Source: a virus (Duplodnaviria > Heunggongvirae > Uroviricota > Caudoviricetes). From it: a stretch of DNA of 18,667 nt. The notes under the pieces were generated by a model, which was not told where the DNA came from, did not search any database, and saw nothing but the letters and a program-made list of their open reading frames with translations. Made by a program: the position numbers and the translations under genes. Positions 2,713 through 18,667 of the stretch are shown here, piece after piece. Numbering within the stretch: position 1 is the first letter of the stretch; the number at the start of each line of letters is the position of its first letter. The DNA lies in the IMG/VR virus record IMGVR_UViG_2563366869_000001. The stretch is one strand, 5' to 3'.

Positions 2713-3537
2713 TCAGGCGGTGAAAGTACCAATAAAGGTTTCTACTTTGCTGTCTTTGAATTTCTCAACAAGCAGATCACGAAATTCGTTAGCCATTTCT
2801 TCCTGCACCGCTTCCAGCTGAATAATGCGCAGAACCAGTACAGGACGATCGCCAGTGATAATGCTGAGGCGTAATTTAAACGGACGTTCTTTCAGACCTT
2901 CAAACGGAACGCATTTAAATTCAAATGCCACTGGCATAATGTCTTTGGTCTTCGCTTCGACAGACTCCATCAGGGAGCGTTTGCCGCTGAAGTCATTATC
3001 TTCAAAATCAGCGGTCTGGTTTGCTTCAATCGTGATTTTACGGACTGCCGCAGCCGCTTTTGTTGCTTGAATGGCGTCACCATTAGCATCAAAGCCCACA
3101 AGGTAGTCGGCCCAGTCTTCGATCCATTCTGCCAGTGACTTCTGGGAGTTACGCTCGCCGTTAACAGACAACAGAGCAGAGAACGGTGCTGTCTTTTTCA
3201 GTTTGAGAGTGGCAGTGTTATCTGCGTGACCTGGCTCATCAATAGTACCCAGGTTAAGCACACTGACGGCACGCATATTATCGGCATCGATAAAGCAGCG
3301 GGTGCCTTCATCTGCAAGATCTTTAGAATAACGGGTAAAATCATCGATGCTGGCAGTGGAAAGTGCACCACGGAAACGGAAGCGATTTAAATTAAATTTT
3401 TCCAGATCATGAATGCGGAAATTCTCAGGCAATGCCACAGCATCGGCACCAATCTTACTGATAATTTCATTAACACCCTGAGCAGAAATAAGGGCATGGA
3501 TTTGATTAATTGCGGTTGCGTCTAAGTTCTGAGACAT
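2713..3537 (-). CDS. YfdQ-like protein (DUF2303 family), 274 aa
   Basis: Full-length ORF with SD GAGGA 7 nt upstream; sequence recalled as similar to E. coli CPS-53 prophage YfdQ. Confidence 0.8.
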
Positions 3538-3602: not shown

Positions 3603-3965
3603 TTAACGACCTGCTGCGCGGAGTTTTCCGTCAGGTTCACCGGCAAGAGTCAGTAATTGTCCCTGGTCTTCCTGCAGAATAGTCAGGCGACCACCGCGAT
3701 TGACATACATCGGCGTTTCGGTGGTGTCTTCTTCGGAAATTTTCCCGCGGTTAGTCGGGCGAATATATGAGAGTTTGTGTTTGATTTTCACACGGTTCTC
3801 ATCAAATGGTTCGATTTCCAGGTTGAGTGAGACCTTACCTTTGGTTTTCGTGTTCATCACACCGGAAGCGACTTCACTGAGAACTGCGCCGATTTTGGTT
3901 TCAAATACGCCGCCGTCCAGCTCCCCGATAAATGCCTGCACATCAGTACTGCGTTCGCTAGCCAT
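3603..3965 (-). CDS. YfdP-like small protein (120 aa)
   Basis: Start assigned to ATG 3965..3963 (MASERSTDVQ...) preceded by SD GAGGAG at 7-nt spacing; the longer upstream extension in the ORF track has non-protein-like composition. Confidence 0.75.
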   Translation of the reverse strand: MASERSTDVQAFIGELDGGVFETKIGAVLSEVASGVMNTKTKGKVSLNLEIEPFDENRVKIKHKLSYIRPTNRGKISEEDTTETPMYVNRGGRLTILQEDQGQLLTLAGEPDGKLRAAGR

Positions 3966-4013: not shown

Positions 4014-4102
4014 ACAAAACAGAGAAGAACACCTGTGGTGGCCGCCGCCCGGATGGATTGGGTTATGAGCCCGTCGTCCGGTGATGCTCTTCTCTGTTTT
4101 GT
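4014..4102. repeat. 15-bp perfect inverted repeat (ACAAAACAGAGAAGA / TCTTCTCTGTTTTGT) enclosing a 59-bp GC-rich segment
   Basis: Arms at 4014..4028 and 4088..4102 are exact reverse complements; lies in a non-coding leader upstream of the leftward operon. Confidence 0.7.
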
Positions 4103-4110
4103 AAAAAGGA

Positions 4111-4147
4111 CGGTACCAGCCGGAAGCAAGGGTACAAGCTGGTACCG
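4111..4147. repeat. 10-bp inverted repeat (CGGTACCAGC / GCTGGTACCG) with 17-nt loop
   Basis: Seen directly at 4111..4120 and 4138..4147; adjacent to three GGTGCC direct repeats (4175..4197) and a GCCTGG/CCAGGC stem (4195..4219). Confidence 0.6.
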
Positions 4148-4373
4148 CCAGGACTACACACAGCATAAAGTTGTGGTGCCGGGTGCCTCCCGGTGCCTGG
4201 CGAAGGTTGCACACCAGGCGGGTGGGTATCCACAGAAGGTCGACTGTCAGCCTCAACCTTAACCCGCGTGCGCTGAGCCGCATTCACCACAACGCTAAGG
4301 ATTCTCTCTGGTTGAAAATACTTAGCTGTTATGTGCCTGCTTTTAGCCACATCAGGCGAGGTGGACCTGGTTA

Positions 4374-4421
4374 TTCCCCAACAACAAGGATTCGGTTAAT
4401 CTGGATATCCCCAACAACAAT
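4374..4421 (+). repeat. Two direct copies of TCCCCAACAACAA spaced 34 bp apart, immediately upstream of the orf164 start
   Basis: Exact 13-mer at 4374..4386 and 4408..4420; the second copy ends about 14 nt before the candidate GTG start. Confidence 0.6.
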
Positions 4422-4434
4422 AAGAGTATTCAAT

Positions 4435-4950
4435 GTGATCGCTGAATTAACGGCAGCAATGACGGCTATTCGTGAAACAGCCCAGATTGCAAAACTAATG
4501 AACGAGGCAAAAACTCAAGCTGAAGTAAATGCGGCTATTGGTGAGCTGAACTCAAAGCTTGCGTCTATTCAGCGCGAATGCGTGTCTCTCGTTGAACTGG
4601 TGGGCTCTTATCAAGAAATAAATGCTTCTCTCAAAGCTAAAATTGCAGAATTCGAAAACTTTGAGGCTCAGACGGAAGGCTATATCCTTAACCAACTTGA
4701 GTCGGGTACTTTTGTATACTCGAAGGAGGTAATCGTGAACGGTGGCAGCATAACCATGCATCTTTGCCCAAAATGTTTTGGACAAAAGATAGTATCGATA
4801 CTTCAACCATTCCCGGTTAGCGAAGATGAGCTTTTTCATAAAAGCAGGTGCCTCCACTGTGAAAATAAGTTTCTGATGAATAAAAATCCGGATTACGTAT
4901 CGCCTCCATCCATTGAGGAGTTGTCCAGAAAACTTAACGGCAATCTGTAG
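4435..4950 (+). CDS. Hypothetical protein: N-terminal coiled-coil-like region plus C-terminal C4 zinc-ribbon (CPKC-x24-CLHC); convergent to cI
   Basis: Protein-like composition begins near GTG 4435 (AAGAG SD at 8-nt spacing) or ATG 4459; the upstream part of the track ORF (from 4171) is Arg/His/Trp-rich and GC-rich, so likely non-coding. Start is uncertain. Confidence 0.6.
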   Translation: MIAELTAAMTAIRETAQIAKLMNEAKTQAEVNAAIGELNSKLASIQRECVSLVELVGSYQEINASLKAKIAEFENFEAQTEGYILNQLESGTFVYSKEVIVNGGSITMHLCPKCFGQKIVSILQPFPVSEDELFHKSRCLHCENKFLMNKNPDYVSPPSIEELSRKLNGNL

Positions 4951-4987
4951 ATTACTACTGTTGTGGATATCCAGATTGTTAAAGAGC

Positions 4988-5012
4988 TAAGCGTCCTGTA
5001 GGGCGCTTTTTT
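4988..5012 (+). terminator. Rho-independent terminator downstream of orf164
   Basis: Stem AGCGTCC/GGGCGCT with 4-nt loop followed by TTTTTT, 38 nt after the TAG stop at 4948..4950; oriented for plus-strand transcripts only. Confidence 0.65.
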
Positions 5013-5094
5013 GTTGCTAACGAATCATCCTGGACTTCATATGCCCCAGGCGGCTACTTCGTGGGCGTCCTGCCTGTTCGTTATCTTTGATATA

Positions 5095-5124
5095 AAATCT
5101 AACTTAACTTAGTTATCATGACAA
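5095..5124 (-). promoter_or_regulatory. Candidate pL-like leftward promoter with overlapping operator motif AACTTAGTT
   Basis: On the minus strand: -35 TTGTCA (5124..5119), 18-bp spacer, -10 TAGATT (5100..5095); the 9-mer AACTTAGTT (5106..5114) in the spacer recurs at the pR side (5883..5891). By-eye prediction. Confidence 0.35.
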
Positions 5125-5177
5125 GAGAAAACACCAAACTTTTCTTGGTTCGGTGCCTTAGTTAGAGAAGAGAGGTC

Positions 5178-5804
5178 TTAGAGTTCGTATTGAACTCCTT
5201 TGACTACACCAATGATAAGGCAATTACCATTGATAGGGATGTTGGGATACCGAGGATTTAATGGCACTAAAAACTTTTGAGGGCCATCGATGACTAATTT
5301 TTTTACTGTAGCTTCGTTTGTTCCATCAAGTCGAGCGATGACTATTTTTCCATGACGAGGTTCTGCATCTGGATCTACAATCACTGTTGCGCCTTCTGGT
5401 ATTGTTGGGAGGCCATTAGGGTTAGTCATGGAGTCACCTTTAACCTCTAATGCAAATGAGTTATCACCAACCTTTAATGATGTATCTACCCACTTGTCCA
5501 CTTCACTAAACACTTCTGCTGCCCTGCACTCAGTAAACTGCCCAGCCTGAACCCACGATATTACAGGAACTCTGCGCATGTTTGTGACGAGTTTGCCTTC
5601 AAACTCAGCACCGTAAAGAATGTAATCTATTGACGTATTGAAGAACTTCGCTAATTTCGAAAGTGCCTCCCCGCCAGGGGTATTGATGTCTTTCTCCCAG
5701 TACCCCACAGCAACGTCGCTTACTCCACAAAATTTACCCAATTCTTTCTGGGACGTTCTGGTAACTCTTCTCAGAGCTTTTATACGCTGACCAACCGTTT
5801 CCAT
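5178..5804 (-). CDS. CI-like prophage repressor (N-terminal HTH plus C-terminal LexA/S24-type autopeptidase domain)
   Basis: 208-aa ORF; HTH near QKELGKFCGVSDVAVGYWE; C-terminal region with Ser (GDSM) and Lys (TVKKL) spaced as in the S24 catalytic dyad; divergent from a cro-like gene. Confidence 0.9.
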   Translation of the reverse strand: METVGQRIKALRRVTRTSQKELGKFCGVSDVAVGYWEKDINTPGGEALSKLAKFFNTSIDYILYGAEFEGKLVTNMRRVPVISWVQAGQFTECRAAEVFSEVDKWVDTSLKVGDNSFALEVKGDSMTNPNGLPTIPEGATVIVDPDAEPRHGKIVIARLDGTNEATVKKLVIDGPQKFLVPLNPRYPNIPINGNCLIIGVVKGVQYEL

Positions 5805-5826: not shown

Positions 5827-5891
5827 CTAAGTAATCTTAGTTTTTATTGACCAAAGATAGATTTGTAATTAGCATCTAACAAAACTTAGTT
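5827..5891 (+). promoter_or_regulatory. Immunity-region operator/promoter (pR-like; pRM probably overlaps on the opposite strand)
   Basis: Palindrome CTAAGTAATCTTAG (5827..5840); -35 TTGACC (5847..5852), 17-bp spacer, -10 TAGCAT (5870..5875); AACTTAGTT at 5883..5891; cro SD GGAGGG follows. Confidence 0.5.
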
Positions 5892-5901
5892 TGGAGGGCG
5901 T

Positions 5902-6102
5902 ATGACAACTGACGATATCGAAAGCTACTTCGGCAGTATTGAGAAAGTTGCTGCTTTTTTCGGCATAACAACTGAAGCCGTTTATCAGTGGCGAAACCGT
6001 CCGGGCCAGTTAATTCCAAAAGGACGTGCAGCAGAAGCTGCATATAGAACTTGCGGACGGTTGCCATTTAAACCTGAGCTTTATGAAAAATCTAATGGAT
6101 AA
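5902..6102 (+). CDS. Cro-like small HTH regulator (YdaS-like)
   Basis: 66-aa ORF divergent from cI; HTH-like VAAFFGITTEAVYQWRN; strong SD GGAGGG. Confidence 0.85.
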   Translation: MTTDDIESYFGSIEKVAAFFGITTEAVYQWRNRPGQLIPKGRAAEAAYRTCGRLPFKPELYEKSNG

Positions 6103-11009: not shown

Positions 11010-11026
11010 TTTTGTGGAGAAAGTTA

Positions 11027-11410
11027 ATGCGTGATATTCAGATGGTTCTTGAACGTTGGGGAGCGTGGGCGGCTAATAATCATGAAGATGTGACCTGGTC
11101 GTCCATTGCCGCCGGTTTTAAGGGATTAATTCCTTCAAAAGTAAAATCTCGCCCGCAATGTTGTGACGATGACGCGATGATCATTTGCGGGTGCATGGCC
11201 CGTCTGAAAAAGAACAACAGCGATTTGCACGATTTATTAGTAGATTATTATGTAGTCGGTATGACATTCATGTCACTGGCAGGTAAGCATTGCTGCTCTG
11301 ATGGTTATATCGGGAAAAGGTTACAGAAGGCTGAGGGCATAATTGAAGGGATGTTAATGGCATTAGATATCCGGTTAGAGATGGATATCGTTGTTAATAA
11401 CTCTAATTAA
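11027..11410 (+). CDS. Late-gene antiterminator Q (phage 82 / QuuD-type), 127 aa
   Basis: Start at ATG 11027 with SD GGAGA; Cys-rich region ([27 protein letters not shown]) characteristic of this Q family, from memory. Confidence 0.85.
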
Positions 11411-11600: not shown

Positions 11601-12697
11601 TAGAACTGGTAAACCAGACCTACAGCAACGATGTCATCAGTGCTTACACCGAGTGCTTTAGTGAAGTCATTTTTGTCAAGCAGGTTGATTTTGTAATCAA
11701 CGAAAGTAGACATATTTTTGTTGAAGTAATAGGTTGCACCTACATCAACATATTTGACTAAGTCCTGATCGCCCCATACTCCAAGATCCTTACCTTTAGA
11801 TTGCAGGTAAGCAACGGACGGACGCAGACCGAAATCGAACTGATATTGTGCAACAGCTTCGAAGTTTTGGGCTTTATTAGCAACGAAGTGATCAGCAAAT
11901 ACAGTCATATTCTGGGTTTCAGAATAGGTAGTGGCCAGGTAAATGTTGTTAGCGTCATATTTCAGACCTGCGGCCCAAACTTCTGCATTTTTACCGGAAG
12001 CAAATACTTCAGGAAGAACTTTCCCTGCATTAACTTGAGTGTCGGTACGATCAGATTTCGCATAAGTTGCACCGATACCGAATCCTTCGTATTCATAGGT
12101 AGCAGAGAAACCGAAGCCATCACCGTTACCTTCAGTGTAGTTATCGAAATCGCTACGATCGTTTTTGCCTTGGTACTGAGCAGCAAAGTTCAGACCATCA
12201 ACCAGACCAAAGAAGTCGTTGTTACGATAGGTTGCAACACCAGTGGTGCGACCAGTCATGAACACATCTGTTTGGGTCCAGGTATCGCCACCGAATTCTG
12301 GCAGAACGTCAGTCCACGCACCGATGTCGTATGCTACACCGTAGTTACGGCCGTAATCGATTGAGCCGTAGTCACCGAATTTCAGGCCTGCAAATGCAAG
12401 ACGGGTTTTGTCTTTGGAGGAACCTTGAGATTCAGCGCGGTTGCCTTTGAATTCATATTCCCACTGACCGAAACCAGTCAGTTGATCGTTGATTTGGGTT
12501 TCACCTTTGAAGCCAAGACGGGCATAAGTAGTATCACCATCATCTGCATCATTAGAGGAGAAGTAGTGCTTAGCATTAACTTTCCCGTACAGATCCAGCT
12601 TGTTACTGTCTTTATTATAAATTTCAGCTGCCTGAGCAGACATCGCCATCAGTACTGATGCAGCTACAGCAGAAATTGCCACTGTTAATTTTTTCAT
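11600..12697 (-). CDS. Phage-encoded OmpC-family general porin (Lc/NmpC-type), with signal peptide
   Basis: Start at ATG 12697 ([30 protein letters not shown]); C-terminal aromatic residue (…VGLVYQF); porin sequence characteristic throughout; encoded opposite to Q and the lysis genes. Confidence 0.92.
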
Positions 12698-13124
12698 CGT
12701 GAGCCCTTTTTTTGAACTATTATTAAAAAATGATGTCACTGCGCGATAAATATTCATCTAATCAATGTGATTATTTCAAGATGTAAGTTTTGGTTTCTCG
12801 TTTGATTTGTGAAGTAGATCTCTATTTTTATCTGAACTTTTTTCTATCGAATCCTATTCATAGCTCTTTGCTGAATAAAAATAAATCTATTAGCCAATTT
12901 ATATTAACGGCTGTTATTTATAAGCGCTCTATAATTTGAGGGTTCAATTTAAATAAGCTAAAAATAACACTGGAAATAATTTGTTGGTTATTTGTTGAGA
13001 TTTGCTTATGTATTTGTAGTGGTGTTTTCAATACTCGGTAGCATTCTCGCAAATATCATTTAGTGGTTTACGTACGTAAAAAATTGGTTATGCTGTTAAG
13101 AGTGGTTACTTCGTCACACAGCTT

Positions 13125-15707: not shown

Positions 15708-16253
15708 ATGGAAGTCAACAAAAAGCAGCTGGCTGATATTTTCGGTGCGAGTATCCGTACCATTCAGAACTGGCAGGAGCAGGGAATGCCCGTTCTGCGA
15801 GGCGGTGGCAAGGGTAATGAGGTGCTTTATGATTCTGCCGCCGTCATAAAATGGTATGCCGAAAGGGATGCTGAAATTGAGAACGAAAAGCTGCGCCGGG
15901 AAGTTGAAGAACTGCGGCAGGCCAGCGAGACAGATCTCCAGCCAGGGACTATTGAGTACGAACGCCATCGACTTACGCGTGCGCAGGCCGACGCACAGGA
16001 GCTGAAAAATGCCAGAGACTCCGCTGAAGTGGTGGAAACCGCATTCTGTACTTTCGTGCTGTCGCGGATCGCAGGTGAAATTGCCAGTATTCTCGACGGG
16101 ATCCCCCTGTCGGTGCAGCGGCGTTTTCCGGAACTGGAAAACCGACATGTTGATTTCCTGAAACGGGATATCATCAAAGCCATGAACAAAGCAGCCGCGC
16201 TGGATGAACTGATACCGGGGTTGCTGAGTGAATATATCGAACAGTCAGGTTAA
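15708..16253 (+). CDS. nu1: Terminase small subunit Nu1 (near-identical to lambda Nu1; NohA-type)
   Basis: 181-aa ORF MEVNKKQLADIFGASIRTIQNWQEQGMPVLRGGGKGNEVLYDSAAVIKWYAER... matches lambda Nu1 from memory with a few substitutions. Confidence 0.93.
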   Translation: MEVNKKQLADIFGASIRTIQNWQEQGMPVLRGGGKGNEVLYDSAAVIKWYAERDAEIENEKLRREVEELRQASETDLQPGTIEYERHRLTRAQADAQELKNARDSAEVVETAFCTFVLSRIAGEIASILDGIPLSVQRRFPELENRHVDFLKRDIIKAMNKAAALDELIPGLLSEYIEQSG

Positions 16254-16539
16254 CAGGCTACGGCATTTTGTCCGCGCCGGGCTTCGCTCACTGTTCAGGC
16301 CGGAGCCACAGACCGCCGTTGAATGGGCGGATGCTAATTACTATCTCCCGAAAGAATCCGCATACCAGGAAGGGCGCTGGGAAACACTGCCCTTTCAGCG
16401 GGCCATCATGAATGCGATGGGCAGCGACTACATCCGCGAGGTGAATGTGGTGAAGTCTGCCCGTGTCGGTTACTGGTGCTTTATGGCAGCGCACATCGAC
16501 AGGGTTTACAAATTTTGCCTGGGTCAATACATCTGGTGA
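16228..16539 (+). pseudogene. Terminase large subunit A, N-terminal fragment only (about 82 lambda-like codons, then unrelated read-through to a stop)
   Basis: [82 protein letters not shown] matches lambda gpA; homology ends at about 16472, after which the frame runs into tail-fibre sequence. Confidence 0.85.
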
Positions 16540-17404
16540 TACTTACGATATTTACGTTGCAATCGGAAATTATGCGACTGGTGTAAATATTCAATGGGAT
16601 TATACCAGTAATGCCAGCGTGACGATTCATACGTCACCAGCATATTCTGCTAATAAGCCGGAAGGGTTAACGGACGGTACAGTTTATTCACTCTATACGC
16701 CATCAGAGCAGTTTTATCCGCCTGGCGCACCAATCCCGTGGCCATCAGATACCGTTCCGTCTGGCTATGCCCTGATGCAGGGGCAGACTTTTGACAAATC
16801 TGCATACCCGAAACTTGCAGCCGCTTATCCGTCAGGCGTGATCCCTGATATGCGTGGCTGGACGATTAAGGGCAAACCTGCCAGTGGTCGGGCCGTATTG
16901 TCTCAGGAACAGGACGGCATTAAATCGCATACCCACAGCGCCAGCGCATCCAGTACGGATTTGGGGACGAAAACCACATCGTCGTTTGATTACGGCACTA
17001 AATCCACGAATAACACTGGTGCGCATACCCATAGTTTAAGTGGCAGCACGAATGCAGCTGGTAATCACAGCCATAGAGATGGCCGTCGATTTAACCCCAG
17101 TGTTTTTAAAGATACTTATCAATATGGTTATACAAGCTCAGGTCAAAATACCTGGGGTGTACAAGGCTCAGTAGGTATGTCTACGGGGTGGTTAGCGAAT
17201 ACCAGTACAGATGGTAATCATAGCCATTCACTGTCCGGCACAGCAGCATCTGCAGGTGCACACGCGCATACTGTCGGTATTGGTGCTCATACGCACTCCG
17301 TTGCGATTGGTTCACATGGACACACCATCACCGTTAACGCTGCTGGTAACGCGGAAAACACCGTCAAAAACATCGCATTTAACTATATTGTGAGGCTTGC
17401 ATAA
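16473..17404 (+). pseudogene. Side tail fibre (Stf) C-terminal fragment, about 310 codons, with no native start
   Basis: Ends ...[19 protein letters not shown] as lambda Stf does; His-rich HxH repeats typical of the Stf C-terminus; begins abruptly at the junction with the terminase fragment, in a different frame. Confidence 0.8.
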
Positions 17405-17979
17405 TGGCATTCAGAATGAGTGAACAACCACGGACCATAAAAATTTATAATCTGCTGGCCGGAACTAATGAATTTATTGGTGAAGGTGACGCATATATTC
17501 CGCCTCATACAGGTCTGCCAGCAAACAGTACCGATATTGCACCACCAGATATTCCTGCTGGCTTTGTGGCTGTTTTCAACAGTGATAAGGCATCGTGGCA
17601 TCTCGTTGAAGACCATCGGGGTAAAACGGTTTATGACGTAGCGTCAGGGGACGCGTTATTTATTTCTGAACTCGGTCCGTTACCGGAAAATGTTACCTGG
17701 TTATCGCCGGAAGGGGAGTTTCAGAAGTGGAACGGCACAGCCTGGGTGAAAGATGCAGAAGCAGAAAAACTGTTCCGGATCCGAGAGGCGGAAGAAACAA
17801 AAAACAGCCTGATGCAGGTAGCCAGTGAGCATATTGCGCCACTTCAGGATGCTGTAGATCTGGAAATCGCAACGGAGGAAGAAACCTCATTGCTGGAAGC
17901 CTGGAAAAAGTATCGGGTGTTGCTGAACCGTGTTGATACGTCAACTGCACAGGATATTGAATGGCCAGCACTGCCGTAG
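17404..17979 (+). CDS. tfa: Tail fibre assembly protein Tfa
   Basis: 191-aa [57 protein letters not shown]... matches lambda/Rac Tfa from memory; ATG overlaps the stf stop. Confidence 0.88.
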
Positions 17980-18076
17980 GGTAAAACATATAAATTCTAT
18001 AATTAGATGTATCTTTCCATTTACGGCAAGGAAGGGGGCTTGGAAGACGTAAAGCATCTCACACCGAGATTATTTT

Positions 18077-18667
18077 TTATATGTCAGGTGTCTGAAGTTT
18101 TGCTTTGGCTCTTAAAATGGTTTGCCGCGAGGTTTTGAATTCCCGGGCAATGGCACTTATACTTACACCTGACTTAATTCGTTCGAATACCACCTGTTTC
18201 TGTTCTTCATTTAACACAGGTGGTCGACCAAAACGTTTCCCTGCGCCGCGGGCTCTTACTATCCCGGAATGAGTGCGTTCAAGTAAAAGGTCTCGTTCAA
18301 ATTCAGCGACTGCTGAAATTACGTGCATCATCATTTTTCCTGTTGGACTGGTCAGGTCAATGCCCCCCAATGCTAAGCAATGCACTCTGATACCTGTTTC
18401 GGTCAGTTGTTCCACTGTTTTCCTGATATCCATTGCATTACAACCAAGGCGATCCAGTTTTGTCACAATCAATTGATCACCACATTTCAGGCGAGCAAGC
18501 AACCGGTTAAAACCAGGACGCTCACTGGTTGCTGCTGAGCCGCTAATGTGTTCTTCGATTATTTGCTGAGGTTTGATTTTAAAACCTGCACTTTCGATTT
18601 CCCGGCGTTGATTTTCGATGGTCTGATCCAGCGTTGATATCCGACAGTAAGCAAAAATTCGAGACAT
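18077..18667 (-). CDS. pin: Pin-family serine DNA invertase (PinR/PinQ-like)
   Basis: 196-aa ORF with resolvase/invertase N-terminal catalytic motif (YCRISTLDQ, Ser10) and C-terminal HTH; start codon is the last three bases of the window. Confidence 0.9.

What the first reader, a model, noticed from the sequence alone, without database searches (positions are those of the whole stretch)
4300..5012. Self-contained, convergently oriented small gene (coiled-coil plus C4 zinc ribbon) embedded antisense in the predicted pL transcript
Immediately left of cI, where lambda carries rexAB, sits a plus-strand ORF of about 164-171 aa with its own rho-independent terminator (4988..5012) pointing toward cI. 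If the pL-like promoter at about 5095..5124 is real, leftward early transcription must run antisense through this gene. That predicts expression in the lysogen and silencing on induction, the logic of superinfection-exclusion and defence morons. The protein has a heptad-rich N-terminal half and a C-terminal CPKC-x24-CLHC ribbon; I do not recognise it as any named family. It may be a DksA/TraR-like RNAP-binding factor, a nucleic-acid-binding exclusion protein, or something new.
Basis: partly seen in the sequence, partly recalled or inferred. Interest (0 to 1): 0.72.

Follow-up and report, generated by a model that had tools for sequence, protein, structure and literature searches.

The report
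Rip1-family anti-phage gene in prophage
The small gene next to the prophage repressor is real and self-contained, and it belongs to the Rip1 family of prophage defence proteins described in 2026, which form membrane pores when they meet ring-shaped packaging proteins of an invading phage; it is a new, still unannotated member of a known kind.

Summary
Window 4435 (GTG)..4950 (+) encodes a 171-aa protein with its own terminator (4989-5008 plus T-run), convergent with cI. A repressor-controlled leftward promoter (5124..5096, operator 5099-5112) would transcribe it antisense.

The protein is not unknown. A family profile matches PDB 9OOX, "phage HK446 Rip1 with T6 small terminase", at E 3e-17. 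The AlphaFold model finds only 9OOX chains in the PDB. This protein, HK446 Rip1, Pseudomonas JBD30 gp30 and HK620 HkaP all fall in PHROG 1244. Rip1 (Patel et al., Nature 2026; read only through a review) is a single-protein pore-forming defence triggered by phage portal or small-terminase rings. The DksA/TraR idea is not supported.

The antisense placement recurs. HK446 rip1 and hkaP also sit backwards inside the pL operon, and JBD30 gp30 sits backwards between its two neighbouring genes.

One feature is new here. The gene sits in a conserved frame, a 105-nt leader and a terminator with complementary inner ends. This frame is better conserved than the protein and carries at least three unrelated cargo genes in E. 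coli. Full copies occur in 685 of 5,426 complete genomes.

Verdict: new member of a known kind, moderate interest.

The parts
4327..4434 (+). Conserved ~105-nt leader of the cassette. It holds two copies of TCCCCAACAACAA (4375, 4408), an invariant TAATCT (4397-4402), and a Shine-Dalgarno AAGAG at 4422-4426.
   Evidence: Conservation starts abruptly at about 4327 in 14 loci from different genera. Mean column identity is 80%. No stable conserved RNA fold was found. The same leader precedes unrelated cargo genes in L003, L031 and L029.
4398..4423 (+). 5' arm of the inverted repeat that brackets the ORF
   Evidence: pair I1: 26 nt, 85% complementary to 4952-4977. The pairing potential is kept in related loci and with other cargos. 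A 5'-3' panhandle appears in the predicted MFE and centroid folds.
4435..4950 (+). Rip1-family gene, 171 aa, GTG start, stop included
   Evidence: for the gene. for family assignment.
4438..4671 (+). N-terminal helical half (residues 2-79: helices 2-24 and 28-79). In Rip1 this is the amphipathic, pore-forming part.
   Evidence: AlphaFold2 model, mean pLDDT 87.8. Maximum hydrophobic moment of residues 1-24 is 0.44, similar to HK446 Rip1 at 0.42. The role is taken from the review PMC13434031.
4684..4884 (+). C-terminal beta-rich domain (residues 84-150) with the invariant CPKC (4765-4776) and CLHC (4849-4860). In Rip1 this half contacts the phage protein ring.
   Evidence: It aligns with HK446 Rip1 residues about 95-159, including both CxxC motifs. 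Most substitutions against the O157 allele fall here, between the two CxxC motifs.
4952..4977 (+). 3' arm of the inverted repeat, starting 2 nt after the stop codon
4989..5014 (+). Rho-independent terminator of the gene (stem 4989-5008, then a T-run), pointing towards cI
   Evidence: Conserved in related loci. On the - strand the stem is followed only by AGCTCTTTAAC, so it should be at most a weak terminator for leftward transcripts (read directly).
5096..5124 (-). pL-like early leftward promoter, TTGTCA-17-TAGATT
   Evidence: It lies inside the immunity-specific block: similarity to PhiR29_1, which carries a different repressor, ends at 5082.
5099..5112 (.). Operator-like palindrome CTAACTTAACTTAG overlapping pL (oL)
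   Evidence: (family D1). The pattern matches at only three places in the window, against 1.2 matches (both strands counted) expected by chance.
5178..5804 (-). cI-type repressor (208 aa), convergent with the Rip1-family gene
   Evidence: Annotated as repressor cI or LexA family protein in near-identical records.
5827..5889 (.). Two further operator copies (5827-5840, 5876-5889) between cI and cro (oR)
4100..4323 (-). STnc100/PasD-like structured RNA lying in the leftward transcript between the cassette and yfdP. It is a neighbour of the cassette, not part of it.
   Evidence: Rfam RF02076: 42.4 bits (gathering score 47), E 1.6e-7, full-length match. Absent from most other loci that carry the cassette.
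3603..3965 (-). yfdP, the first leftward protein-coding gene after pL, about 1.1 kb downstream of the promoter

Best explanation
Window 4435-4950 encodes a Rip1-family ('ring interacting pore') single-protein anti-phage defence carried by a lambdoid, apparently defective, prophage of the SfV/CPS-53 type.

Shown here: homology in sequence and in predicted fold to HK446 Rip1, the same size and two-part architecture, and the same backward orientation inside a phage operon.

Inferred from the published Rip1 mechanism, as summarised in a review. The protein is made at a low level from the prophage and is harmless alone. When a superinfecting phage reaches late gene expression, its oligomeric ring proteins (small terminase in coliphages, portal in Pseudomonas phages) are bound by the C-terminal zinc-ribbon domain. 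This templates a roughly 12-mer Rip1 ring, and the N-terminal amphipathic helices form a membrane pore. The cell is permeabilised before progeny mature, which is abortive infection.

Inferred from the anatomy. In the lysogen cI holds the pL-like promoter off, so the gene is expressed from its own conserved leader and ends at its own terminator. On induction, leftward transcription from 5124..5096 runs antisense across the whole gene. That would lower its expression and might help the prophage avoid triggering its own Rip1.
For: Sequence. phmmer of the protein against PDB sequences gives one significant hit, 9oox_L 'ring interacting pore 1 (Rip1)', E 2.7e-7, over residues 14-150 of 171. A profile of 22 homologues raises this to E 3.2e-17 over positions 6-153, matching residues 16-161 of 164 and both CxxC motifs. 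hhalign of the same profile gives E 3e-18 against Pseudomonas phage JBD30 gp30 and E 7e-22 against HK620 HkaP. All four proteins hit PHROG 1244 with E between 9e-60 and 8e-51.

Fold. The AlphaFold2 model has pLDDT 87.8. Foldseek against the PDB returns only 9oox_L and 9oox_M ('Escherichia phage HK446 Rip1 in complex with phage T6 small terminase') below E 0.1. Those hits have E 2e-7 and 8e-7, and TM-scores of 0.54 by query and 0.70 by target for chain M.

Conserved features. Eleven residues besides the initiator Met are invariant across the four lineages, including C111, C114, C139 and C142. The gene is under purifying selection, dN/dS 0.14.

Context. HK446 rip1 (gp37) and HK620/HK630 hkaP lie on the opposite strand inside the pL operon between N and cIII. 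JBD30 gp30 lies backwards between its two flanking genes. A Citrobacter prophage homologue lies between xis and a cI-like repressor, exactly as here.

Function of Rip1. Review PMC13434031, a conference report and PMC13601566.

Promoter and operator..
Against: Identity to the characterised Rip1 proteins is only 24-28%, so trigger specificity and even activity could differ. No experiment was done. The primary paper (Patel et al. 2026, Nature 651:1060) is not in the library, so the mechanism is taken from a review, a meeting report and the PDB entry title.

No consensus sigma-70 promoter was found for the gene, so expression in the lysogen is unproven. The amphipathicity of the N-terminal helix is modest: 6% of shuffles reach the observed moment. 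The TM-score normalised by query is only 0.39-0.54, because the long helices of the monomer model are placed differently from the assembled state.

The host prophage looks defective. Nu1 is followed directly by tail-fibre genes, so the 'silencing on induction' logic may no longer operate in this copy.
Confidence: 0.75

Rival explanations
1. The protein is a true Rip1-family homologue, but in lambdoid phages it works differently from the published pore model. It could be a SieB-like exclusion factor acting on another step, or a factor serving the phage's own packaging, because it binds terminase or portal rings.
For: It occupies the slot in the pL operon where the related gene hkaP was annotated, on position alone, as a 'putative superinfection exclusion protein' in HK620. 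Identity to HK446 Rip1 is only 24-28%. The segment between the two CxxC motifs varies in length and sequence across the family. The family is large and little explored, with 2,350 clusters.
Against: HK446 Rip1, the structurally characterised protein, is itself from a lambdoid coliphage and sits in the same operon position. Architecture, size and invariant residues are shared. No SieB Pfam family appears among matches up to E=1. The gene is oriented against the lytic operon, which argues against a role in the phage's own lytic cycle.
Confidence: 0.12
2. It is a DksA/TraR-like RNA-polymerase-binding regulator (coiled coil plus C4 zinc finger).
For: Superficial resemblance only: a long helical N-terminal half followed by four cysteines.
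Against: Pfam gives no zf-dskA_traR hit at E<=1. The Cys spacing is CxxC-x24-CxxC, embedded in a six-strand beta domain, whereas the DksA/TraR finger as I recall it has a shorter spacing of about 17 residues. The two model helices are 23 and 52 residues long, not an even antiparallel hairpin. Foldseek lists no DksA or TraR structure in the top 50, and only Rip1 is significant.
Confidence: 0.02
3. It is a decaying or functionless passenger of a defective prophage.
For: The prophage in the window lacks large terminase, portal, head and tail genes between Nu1 and the tail-fibre genes. Homologues in Symbiopectobacterium purcellii (L014) and Serratia symbiotica (L026) carry premature stops after 13 and 42 codons.
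Against: The ORF is intact with every family-invariant residue. dN/dS is 0.14. The cassette is present at 80% or more of its length in 685 of 5,426 complete E. coli genomes. Its regulatory flanks are strongly conserved.
Confidence: 0.05

Closest known systems
Rip1 (ring interacting pore 1) of Escherichia phage HK446, gp37 (PDB 9OOX); Patel et al. 2026, Nature 651:1060
   Same: Same PHROG (1244). Profile E 3e-17, and the only significant fold match. Similar size (164 against 171 aa). N-terminal helices followed by a C-terminal beta domain with CxxC...CxxC. Encoded by a lambdoid coliphage on the strand opposite to the pL operon.
   Different: Only 24-28% identity. HK446 rip1 lies between N and the ral/cIII genes and overlaps the end of N, whereas here the gene is the first thing downstream of pL, directly convergent with cI, and no N-like gene was seen. 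The conserved leader / inverted repeat / terminator frame of the window was not detected by blastn in the HK446 or HK620 loci, and no comparable flanking repeat was found there. Trigger specificity is unknown.
Rip1-like gp30 of Pseudomonas casadabanviruses (JBD30, DMS3, MP38)
   Same: Same family (hhalign E 3e-18, 28-30% identity). Single small gene on the opposite strand to its two neighbours.
   Different: Per the review, the Pseudomonas rip1 lies between the small and large terminase genes, and its escapers map to portal. The JBD30 record itself annotates the neighbours only as hypothetical proteins. Different host, phage type and genomic slot.
HK620/HK630 HkaP ('putative superinfection exclusion protein')
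   Same: Same family (hhalign E 7e-22). Opposite strand inside the pL operon, with an annotated terminator nearby.
   Different: 28% identity. Located between hkaQ/N and cIII. Its annotation rests on position only.
Lambda/P22 SieB
   Same: Works like it in layout: an exclusion gene inside the early leftward operon, transcribed against it and expressed in the lysogen (my own knowledge of lambda and P22 biology).
   Different: No sequence relationship: no SieB Pfam family among matches up to E=1. As I recall, SieB is a membrane protein with its own Esc self-immunity product. None of that is seen here.
Lambda RexAB
   Same: A prophage-expressed abortive-infection system next to cI that ends in membrane permeabilisation (my own knowledge).
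   Different: RexAB has two components, lies between cI and pL, and is co-transcribed with cI. This gene is a single component, lies beyond pL and is convergent with cI. No RexA or RexB Pfam family among matches up to E=1.
DksA/TraR zinc-finger regulators
   Same: Helical region plus four cysteines.
   Different: No Pfam match, different Cys spacing, different fold.

Membership tests
Rip1 (ring interacting pore) family / PHROG 1244 | Significant sequence homology to an experimentally characterised Rip1 | tested here: met
   phmmer E 2.7e-7 and family-profile E 3.2e-17 against 9oox_L, near full length. Same PHROG as HK446 Rip1, JBD30 gp30 and HkaP.
Rip1 (ring interacting pore) family / PHROG 1244 | Predicted fold matches the solved Rip1 structure | tested here: met
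   Foldseek against the PDB: 9oox_L and 9oox_M are the only hits below E 0.1 (E 2e-7 and 8e-7). TM-score 0.70 by target and 0.54 by query for chain M. Model pLDDT 87.8.
Rip1 (ring interacting pore) family / PHROG 1244 | Two-part architecture in about 150-180 aa: N-terminal amphipathic helical half and C-terminal ring-binding half with four conserved Cys | tested here: met
   Helices 2-24 and 28-79, then six strands with CPKC and CLHC. The four Cys are invariant across four lineages. Relatives are 145-180 aa. Amphipathicity is only moderate.
Rip1 (ring interacting pore) family / PHROG 1244 | Prophage-encoded single gene with no partner gene, oriented so that it can be expressed from the prophage | tested here: met
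   Lambdoid prophage context, own terminator, convergent with cI, antisense to pL. Same layout in HK446, HK620, HK630, JBD30 and a Citrobacter prophage.
Rip1 (ring interacting pore) family / PHROG 1244 | Assembles as a roughly 12-mer ring around oligomeric small terminase or portal and forms a membrane pore | not testable with these tools
   Needs biochemistry, cryo-EM or multimer modelling. The property is taken from review PMC13434031.
Rip1 (ring interacting pore) family / PHROG 1244 | Confers phage resistance, is non-toxic without the trigger, and escapers map to portal or small terminase | not testable with these tools
   Requires plaque assays and escaper sequencing.
DksA/TraR family | zf-dskA_traR C4 finger recognisable by Pfam, following an antiparallel coiled-coil hairpin | tested here: not met
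   No such Pfam hit at E<=1. Spacing is x24. Helices of 23 and 52 residues. No DksA or TraR structure in the top 50 Foldseek hits.
SieB superinfection-exclusion family | Sequence membership in the SieB family | tested here: not met
   No SieB family among Pfam matches up to E=1. The PHROG assignment is 1244, of unknown function.
RexA/RexB | Two-gene system co-transcribed with cI, with RexA/RexB homology | tested here: not met
   Single gene on the strand opposite to cI. No Rex families among Pfam matches and no PADLOC model matched.

The most novel reading that the evidence does not exclude
The Rip1-like gene is one cargo of a portable, cargo-swapping expression frame. The frame is a ~105-nt conserved leader and a terminator whose inner ends are complementary (AATCTGGATATCCCCAAC / GTTGTGGATATCCAGATT). 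It is better conserved across genera than the protein. It occurs at least in part in 1,437 of 5,426 complete E. coli genomes and carries at least three unrelated cargo genes. The complementary ends would form an mRNA panhandle, possibly an RNase III substrate, or act as exchange sites. Together with antisense transcription from pL, this would give lysogen-only expression and spare the inducing prophage from its own defence protein.
Probability: 0.2. Interest if true: 0.6.

Novelty: new member of a known kind. Interest (0 to 1): 0.35.

Why it matters
It gives a probable function to a gene still labelled 'hypothetical protein' in RefSeq, with no Pfam, NCBIfam or PADLOC match and a PHROG of unknown function. 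Near-full copies of its cassette occur in about one in eight complete E. coli genomes, including O157:H7. It is a distinct Rip1 subfamily, only 24-28% identical to the studied proteins, so it is a natural test of how far the 'oligomeric ring triggers a pore' mechanism and its trigger range extend. The conserved leader / inverted repeat / terminator frame with interchangeable cargo marks a defined slot in lambdoid prophages. The other two cargo proteins (the ECs1072 family and a 167-aa helical protein) are candidate defence genes. The recurrent backward orientation inside lytic operons suggests a testable answer to how a prophage avoids being killed by its own Rip1 on induction.

Tried and rejected
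Family scans. Pfam gave only sub-threshold coiled-coil noise. PADLOC gave nothing and also misses HK446 Rip1 itself, so its silence is uninformative. NCBIfam gave nothing above cut-off.

Literature. The primary Rip1 paper could not be read by DOI or PMID, and no preprint was found. Searches for HK446, hkaP and phrog_1244 returned nothing relevant.

Leader as structured RNA. RNAalifold gives only -4.9 kcal/mol and no meaningful covariation, so a riboswitch- or thermosensor-like fold is rejected. Rfam at gathering thresholds finds nothing in the region.

Promoter. The consensus scan finds no + strand promoter between 4150 and 4434. By eye only a weak TTCCCC-17-TAATCT (4374-4402) is seen. I do not claim a start site.

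STnc100-like RNA as part of the unit. Rejected, because most loci with the cassette lack it.

Mobile-element reading of the inverted repeat. A 3-bp GTT lies outside both arms, but no empty site was found and all copies share the same flanks, so this counts as a single observation and is left open.

Alternative cargos. They were scanned against Pfam and PADLOC without result.
Full report
**1. The observation**

The mechanical ORF list shows a + strand frame open from 4171 to 4950. Three lines of evidence fix the real start at GTG 4435, giving 171 aa:
- An AAGAG Shine-Dalgarno lies 8 nt upstream.
- All full-length homologues begin M/V-IAEL at the aligned codon, and the GTG is conserved in 11 of 14 loci.
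- NCBI's PGAP annotates the identical 516-nt CDS in E. coli 2013C-4187 as WP_000559922.1, 'hypothetical protein'.

The gene ends 38 nt before an 8-bp, G+C-rich hairpin (4989-5008) followed by TTTTTTGTTG. Comparison with the 93.6%-identical O157:H7 allele gives dN/dS 0.14, so it is a protein-coding gene under purifying selection.

**2. The surroundings**

The window is a lambdoid prophage of the SfV / CPS-53 / mEp460 type. Its layout is as follows:
- Integrase at the left end.
- yfdR, yfdQ (2713-3537) and yfdP (3603-3965) on the - strand.
- The gene in question.
- A cI-type repressor (5178-5804, - strand), cro (5902-6102) and replication genes.
- Q antiterminator, a porin gene, lysis genes and Nu1.

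Directly after Nu1 come tail-fibre, tail-fibre-assembly and invertase genes, so the prophage appears defective.

A sigma-70-like promoter, TTGTCA-17-TAGATT, lies on the - strand at 5124..5096. The 14-bp palindrome CTAAC-TTAA-CTTAG (5099-5112) sits across its spacer and -10 element. The same motif occurs twice between cI and cro (5827-5840, 5876-5889) and nowhere else in 18.7 kb. Similarity to phage PhiR29_1, which has the same gene but a different repressor, stops at 5082. That places 5083-5177 in the immunity-specific module.

A leftward early transcript would cross the whole gene in antisense before reaching yfdP about 1.1 kb later. The gene therefore lies downstream of pL, like lambda sieB or HK620 hkaP. 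It is not between cI and pL, where rexAB lies.

**3. What the protein is**

Pfam, NCBIfam and PADLOC give nothing. PHROGs assigns it to phrog_1244, of unknown function (E 9e-60).

Sequence evidence:
- A sequence search of all PDB chains gives a single significant hit: 9oox_L, 'ring interacting pore 1 (Rip1)', E 2.7e-7.
- A profile built from 22 homologues (A1) raises this to E 3.2e-17 over nearly the full length, and aligns both CxxC motifs.
- The profile also matches Pseudomonas phage JBD30 gp30 (hhalign E 3e-18) and HK620 HkaP (E 7e-22).
- HK446 gp37, JBD30 gp30 and HkaP all fall in phrog_1244.
- Across these lineages L38, L66, Y83, V94, Y95, C111, C114, I122, L123, C139 and C142 are invariant.

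Fold evidence:
- The AlphaFold2 model (pLDDT 87.8) has helices at 2-24 and 28-79, followed by a six-strand domain.
- Foldseek against the PDB returns only 9oox_L and 9oox_M, 'Escherichia phage HK446 Rip1 in complex with the Enterobacteria phage T6 small terminase', below E 0.1. TM-score is 0.70 by target.

An exhaustive HMM search finds 2,350 clusters at 50% identity (662 at E<=1e-10). Most of the 150 best-scoring ones are 145-180 aa and match end to end. This is a large family of uniform small proteins.

**4. How it most likely works**

According to the review PMC13434031, a meeting report and PMC13601566, Rip1 has these properties:
- It is a prophage-encoded single protein that is harmless alone.
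- Escape mutations map to portal in Pseudomonas phages and to small terminase in E. coli phages.
- Cryo-EM shows 12 Rip1 monomers around an 11-mer small-terminase ring.
- The N-terminal half forms an amphipathic helix. The C-terminal half contacts the ring.
- The assembly forms a pore that permeabilises liposomes and cells, so the infected cell lyses prematurely.

I could not read the primary paper (Patel et al. 2026, Nature 651:1060).

The window protein shares the architecture, size, invariant residues and predicted fold. The best explanation is therefore that it works the same way (confidence 0.75). Family membership is shown. Pore formation, the trigger and the phenotype are inferred. The N-terminal helix is moderately amphipathic (moment 0.44, against 0.42 in HK446 Rip1). 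Substitutions between alleles cluster between the two CxxC motifs, and that segment has indels across the family. This is consistent with a variable recognition surface, but that is inference.

**5. The antisense layout is a family habit**

- HK446 rip1 (gp37) lies on the + strand between N and the ral/cIII genes of the leftward operon. Its last codons overlap the end of N.
- hkaP in HK620 and HK630 lies between hkaQ/N and cIII. In HK620 it was annotated 'putative superinfection exclusion protein'.
- JBD30 gp30 lies backwards between the two genes that flank it. The review says the Pseudomonas rip1 lies between the small and large terminase genes.
- A Citrobacter prophage homologue lies between xis and a cI-like repressor.

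It fits the whole family, and it offers a way for a prophage to limit self-triggering by its own ring proteins. It remains untested.

**6. A conserved frame around the gene**

This is a new observation, only partly followed up. Sixteen loci from one-per-species genomes were compared, including Citrobacter, Scandinavium, Trabulsiella, Symbiopectobacterium, Edwardsiella, Buttiauxella, Enterobacter, Kosakonia, Erwinia and Serratia.

Conservation of the flanks:
- The proteins are 44-62% identical, but the flanks are much better conserved.
- Upstream similarity begins abruptly about 105 nt before the start codon, at window 4327. Mean column identity there is 80%.
- Downstream, the sequence GGATATCCAGATTGTTAAAGAGC plus the terminator recurs.

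Complementary inner ends:
- The inner ends of the two flanks are complementary. Positions 4398-4423 pair with 4952-4977 (26 nt, 85%), bracketing the ORF to within 11 nt and 2 nt.

Other cargo in the same frame:
- ECs1072-family protein (phrog_5286), with a 68-aa antisense ORF, in phage vB_EcoS-569R4 and an ST131 chromosome.
- A 167-aa helical protein in strain S1-SRB-02-B.
- The complementarity is kept with both. In the latter, both arms have changed together at two positions: AATCTG to AATCTT, and CAACA to TAACA.

Other properties:
- A 5'-3' panhandle appears in the predicted MFE and centroid folds of the transcript.
- The leader itself has no stable conserved fold.
- In three loci a divergent gene starts about 25 nt upstream of the leader, so the promoter should be inside the leader. 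Only a weak TTCCCC-17-TAATCT is visible, although TAATCT is invariant.
- Among 5,426 complete E. coli genomes, 685 hold at least 80% of the 686-nt cassette and 1,437 hold at least part of the frame.

Whether the complementary ends act in RNA (stability, RNase III) or in DNA (exchange sites) is open.

**7. Rivals**

- A Rip1 homologue with a different activity (0.12).
- A DksA/TraR-like regulator (0.02). There is no Pfam match, the Cys spacing differs, and the fold differs.
- A decaying passenger (0.05). This is contradicted by the intact ORF, the purifying selection and the gene's prevalence.

**8. Verdict**

The finding is real and the defence-moron reading was a good call. The protein belongs to a family described in 2026, and the structurally characterised member comes from a lambdoid coliphage in the same kind of position. 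It is a new, divergent and still unannotated member of a known kind, with interest 0.35. The cargo-swapping frame with complementary ends is the part that goes beyond what I could find described.

Noticed in passing
window 4398-4423 and 4952-4977: A 26-nt inverted repeat (85% complementary) brackets the ORF almost exactly. It is conserved in related loci and with unrelated cargo genes, and in L029 both arms changed together at two positions. A 3-bp GTT lies just outside both arms. A panhandle is predicted in the mRNA fold.
   Followed up: partly
window 4327-4434: The ~105-nt leader is more conserved across genera (80% column identity) than the protein it precedes. It contains two TCCCCAACAACAA repeats (AAC/AAG triplets), two GGA motifs and an invariant TAATCT. 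No stable conserved RNA fold and no consensus promoter were found.
   Followed up: partly
L003 2952-3564; L031 1308-1920; L029 1309-1812; L002 4067-4363: The slot between yfdP and the repressor holds different genes in related phages. Inside the same leader/terminator frame these are an ECs1072-family protein (phrog_5286) with a 68-aa antisense ORF, or a 167-aa helical protein. In SfV the frame is absent and orf33 (phrog_3195) sits there on the other strand. None matches Pfam or PADLOC.
   Followed up: partly
window 4100-4323 (- strand): Full-length but sub-threshold match to Rfam STnc100 (42.4 bits against 47; E 1.6e-7), a prophage Hfq-type sRNA family reported as related to PasD. It ends in a GGTACCAGC...GCTGGTACC hairpin followed by CTTTTT at about 4146-4100, which leftward transcripts must pass before yfdP.
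   Followed up: partly
window 4014-4031 and 4085-4102: An 18-bp, 94% complementary stem with a 53-nt loop lies just upstream of yfdP. It is conserved in a Citrobacter prophage (L004 5689-5777) that lacks yfdP.
   Followed up: no
window 5128-5157 (- strand): A possible terminator for the cI transcript (CACCGAAC-CAAGAAAA-GTTTGGTG followed by TTTTCTCTT) lies immediately before the -35 of the pL-like promoter. It was seen by eye and not reported by the scan.
   Followed up: no
window 15708-18667: The prophage looks defective. The Nu1 small-terminase gene (15708-16250) is followed directly by tail-fibre (16463-17401), tail-fibre-assembly (17404-17976) and invertase (18080-18667, - strand) genes, with no large terminase, portal, head or tail genes in between. 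The retained Nu1 is a potential Rip1-type trigger.
   Followed up: partly
window 11603-12757 (- strand): A Gram-negative porin gene (Pfam Porin_1, E 1e-156) sits just downstream of the Q antiterminator gene (11012-11407), on the opposite strand. This is a classic lambdoid moron position.
   Followed up: no
window 17747-17945 (+ strand): Strong Rfam IS009 match (226.7 bits), lying inside the tail-fibre-assembly coding sequence.
   Followed up: no
L013 about 4586-5000: In Trabulsiella odontotermitis the conserved leader is followed by a short, apparently truncated paralogue. Then comes a second, degenerate copy of the leader's 3' part, and then the full gene. This suggests recombination within the leader.
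   Followed up: no
L014 5001-5042; L026 5001-5129: The homologues in Symbiopectobacterium purcellii and Serratia symbiotica, both insect symbionts, have premature stops after 13 and 42 codons, although the flanks are retained.
   Followed up: no
L002 6453-6641; L015 9504-9690: Adjacent isrK and C4 antisense RNA Rfam matches lie downstream of the immunity region in SfV and in a Symbiopectobacterium prophage. The window has no such matches.
   Followed up: no
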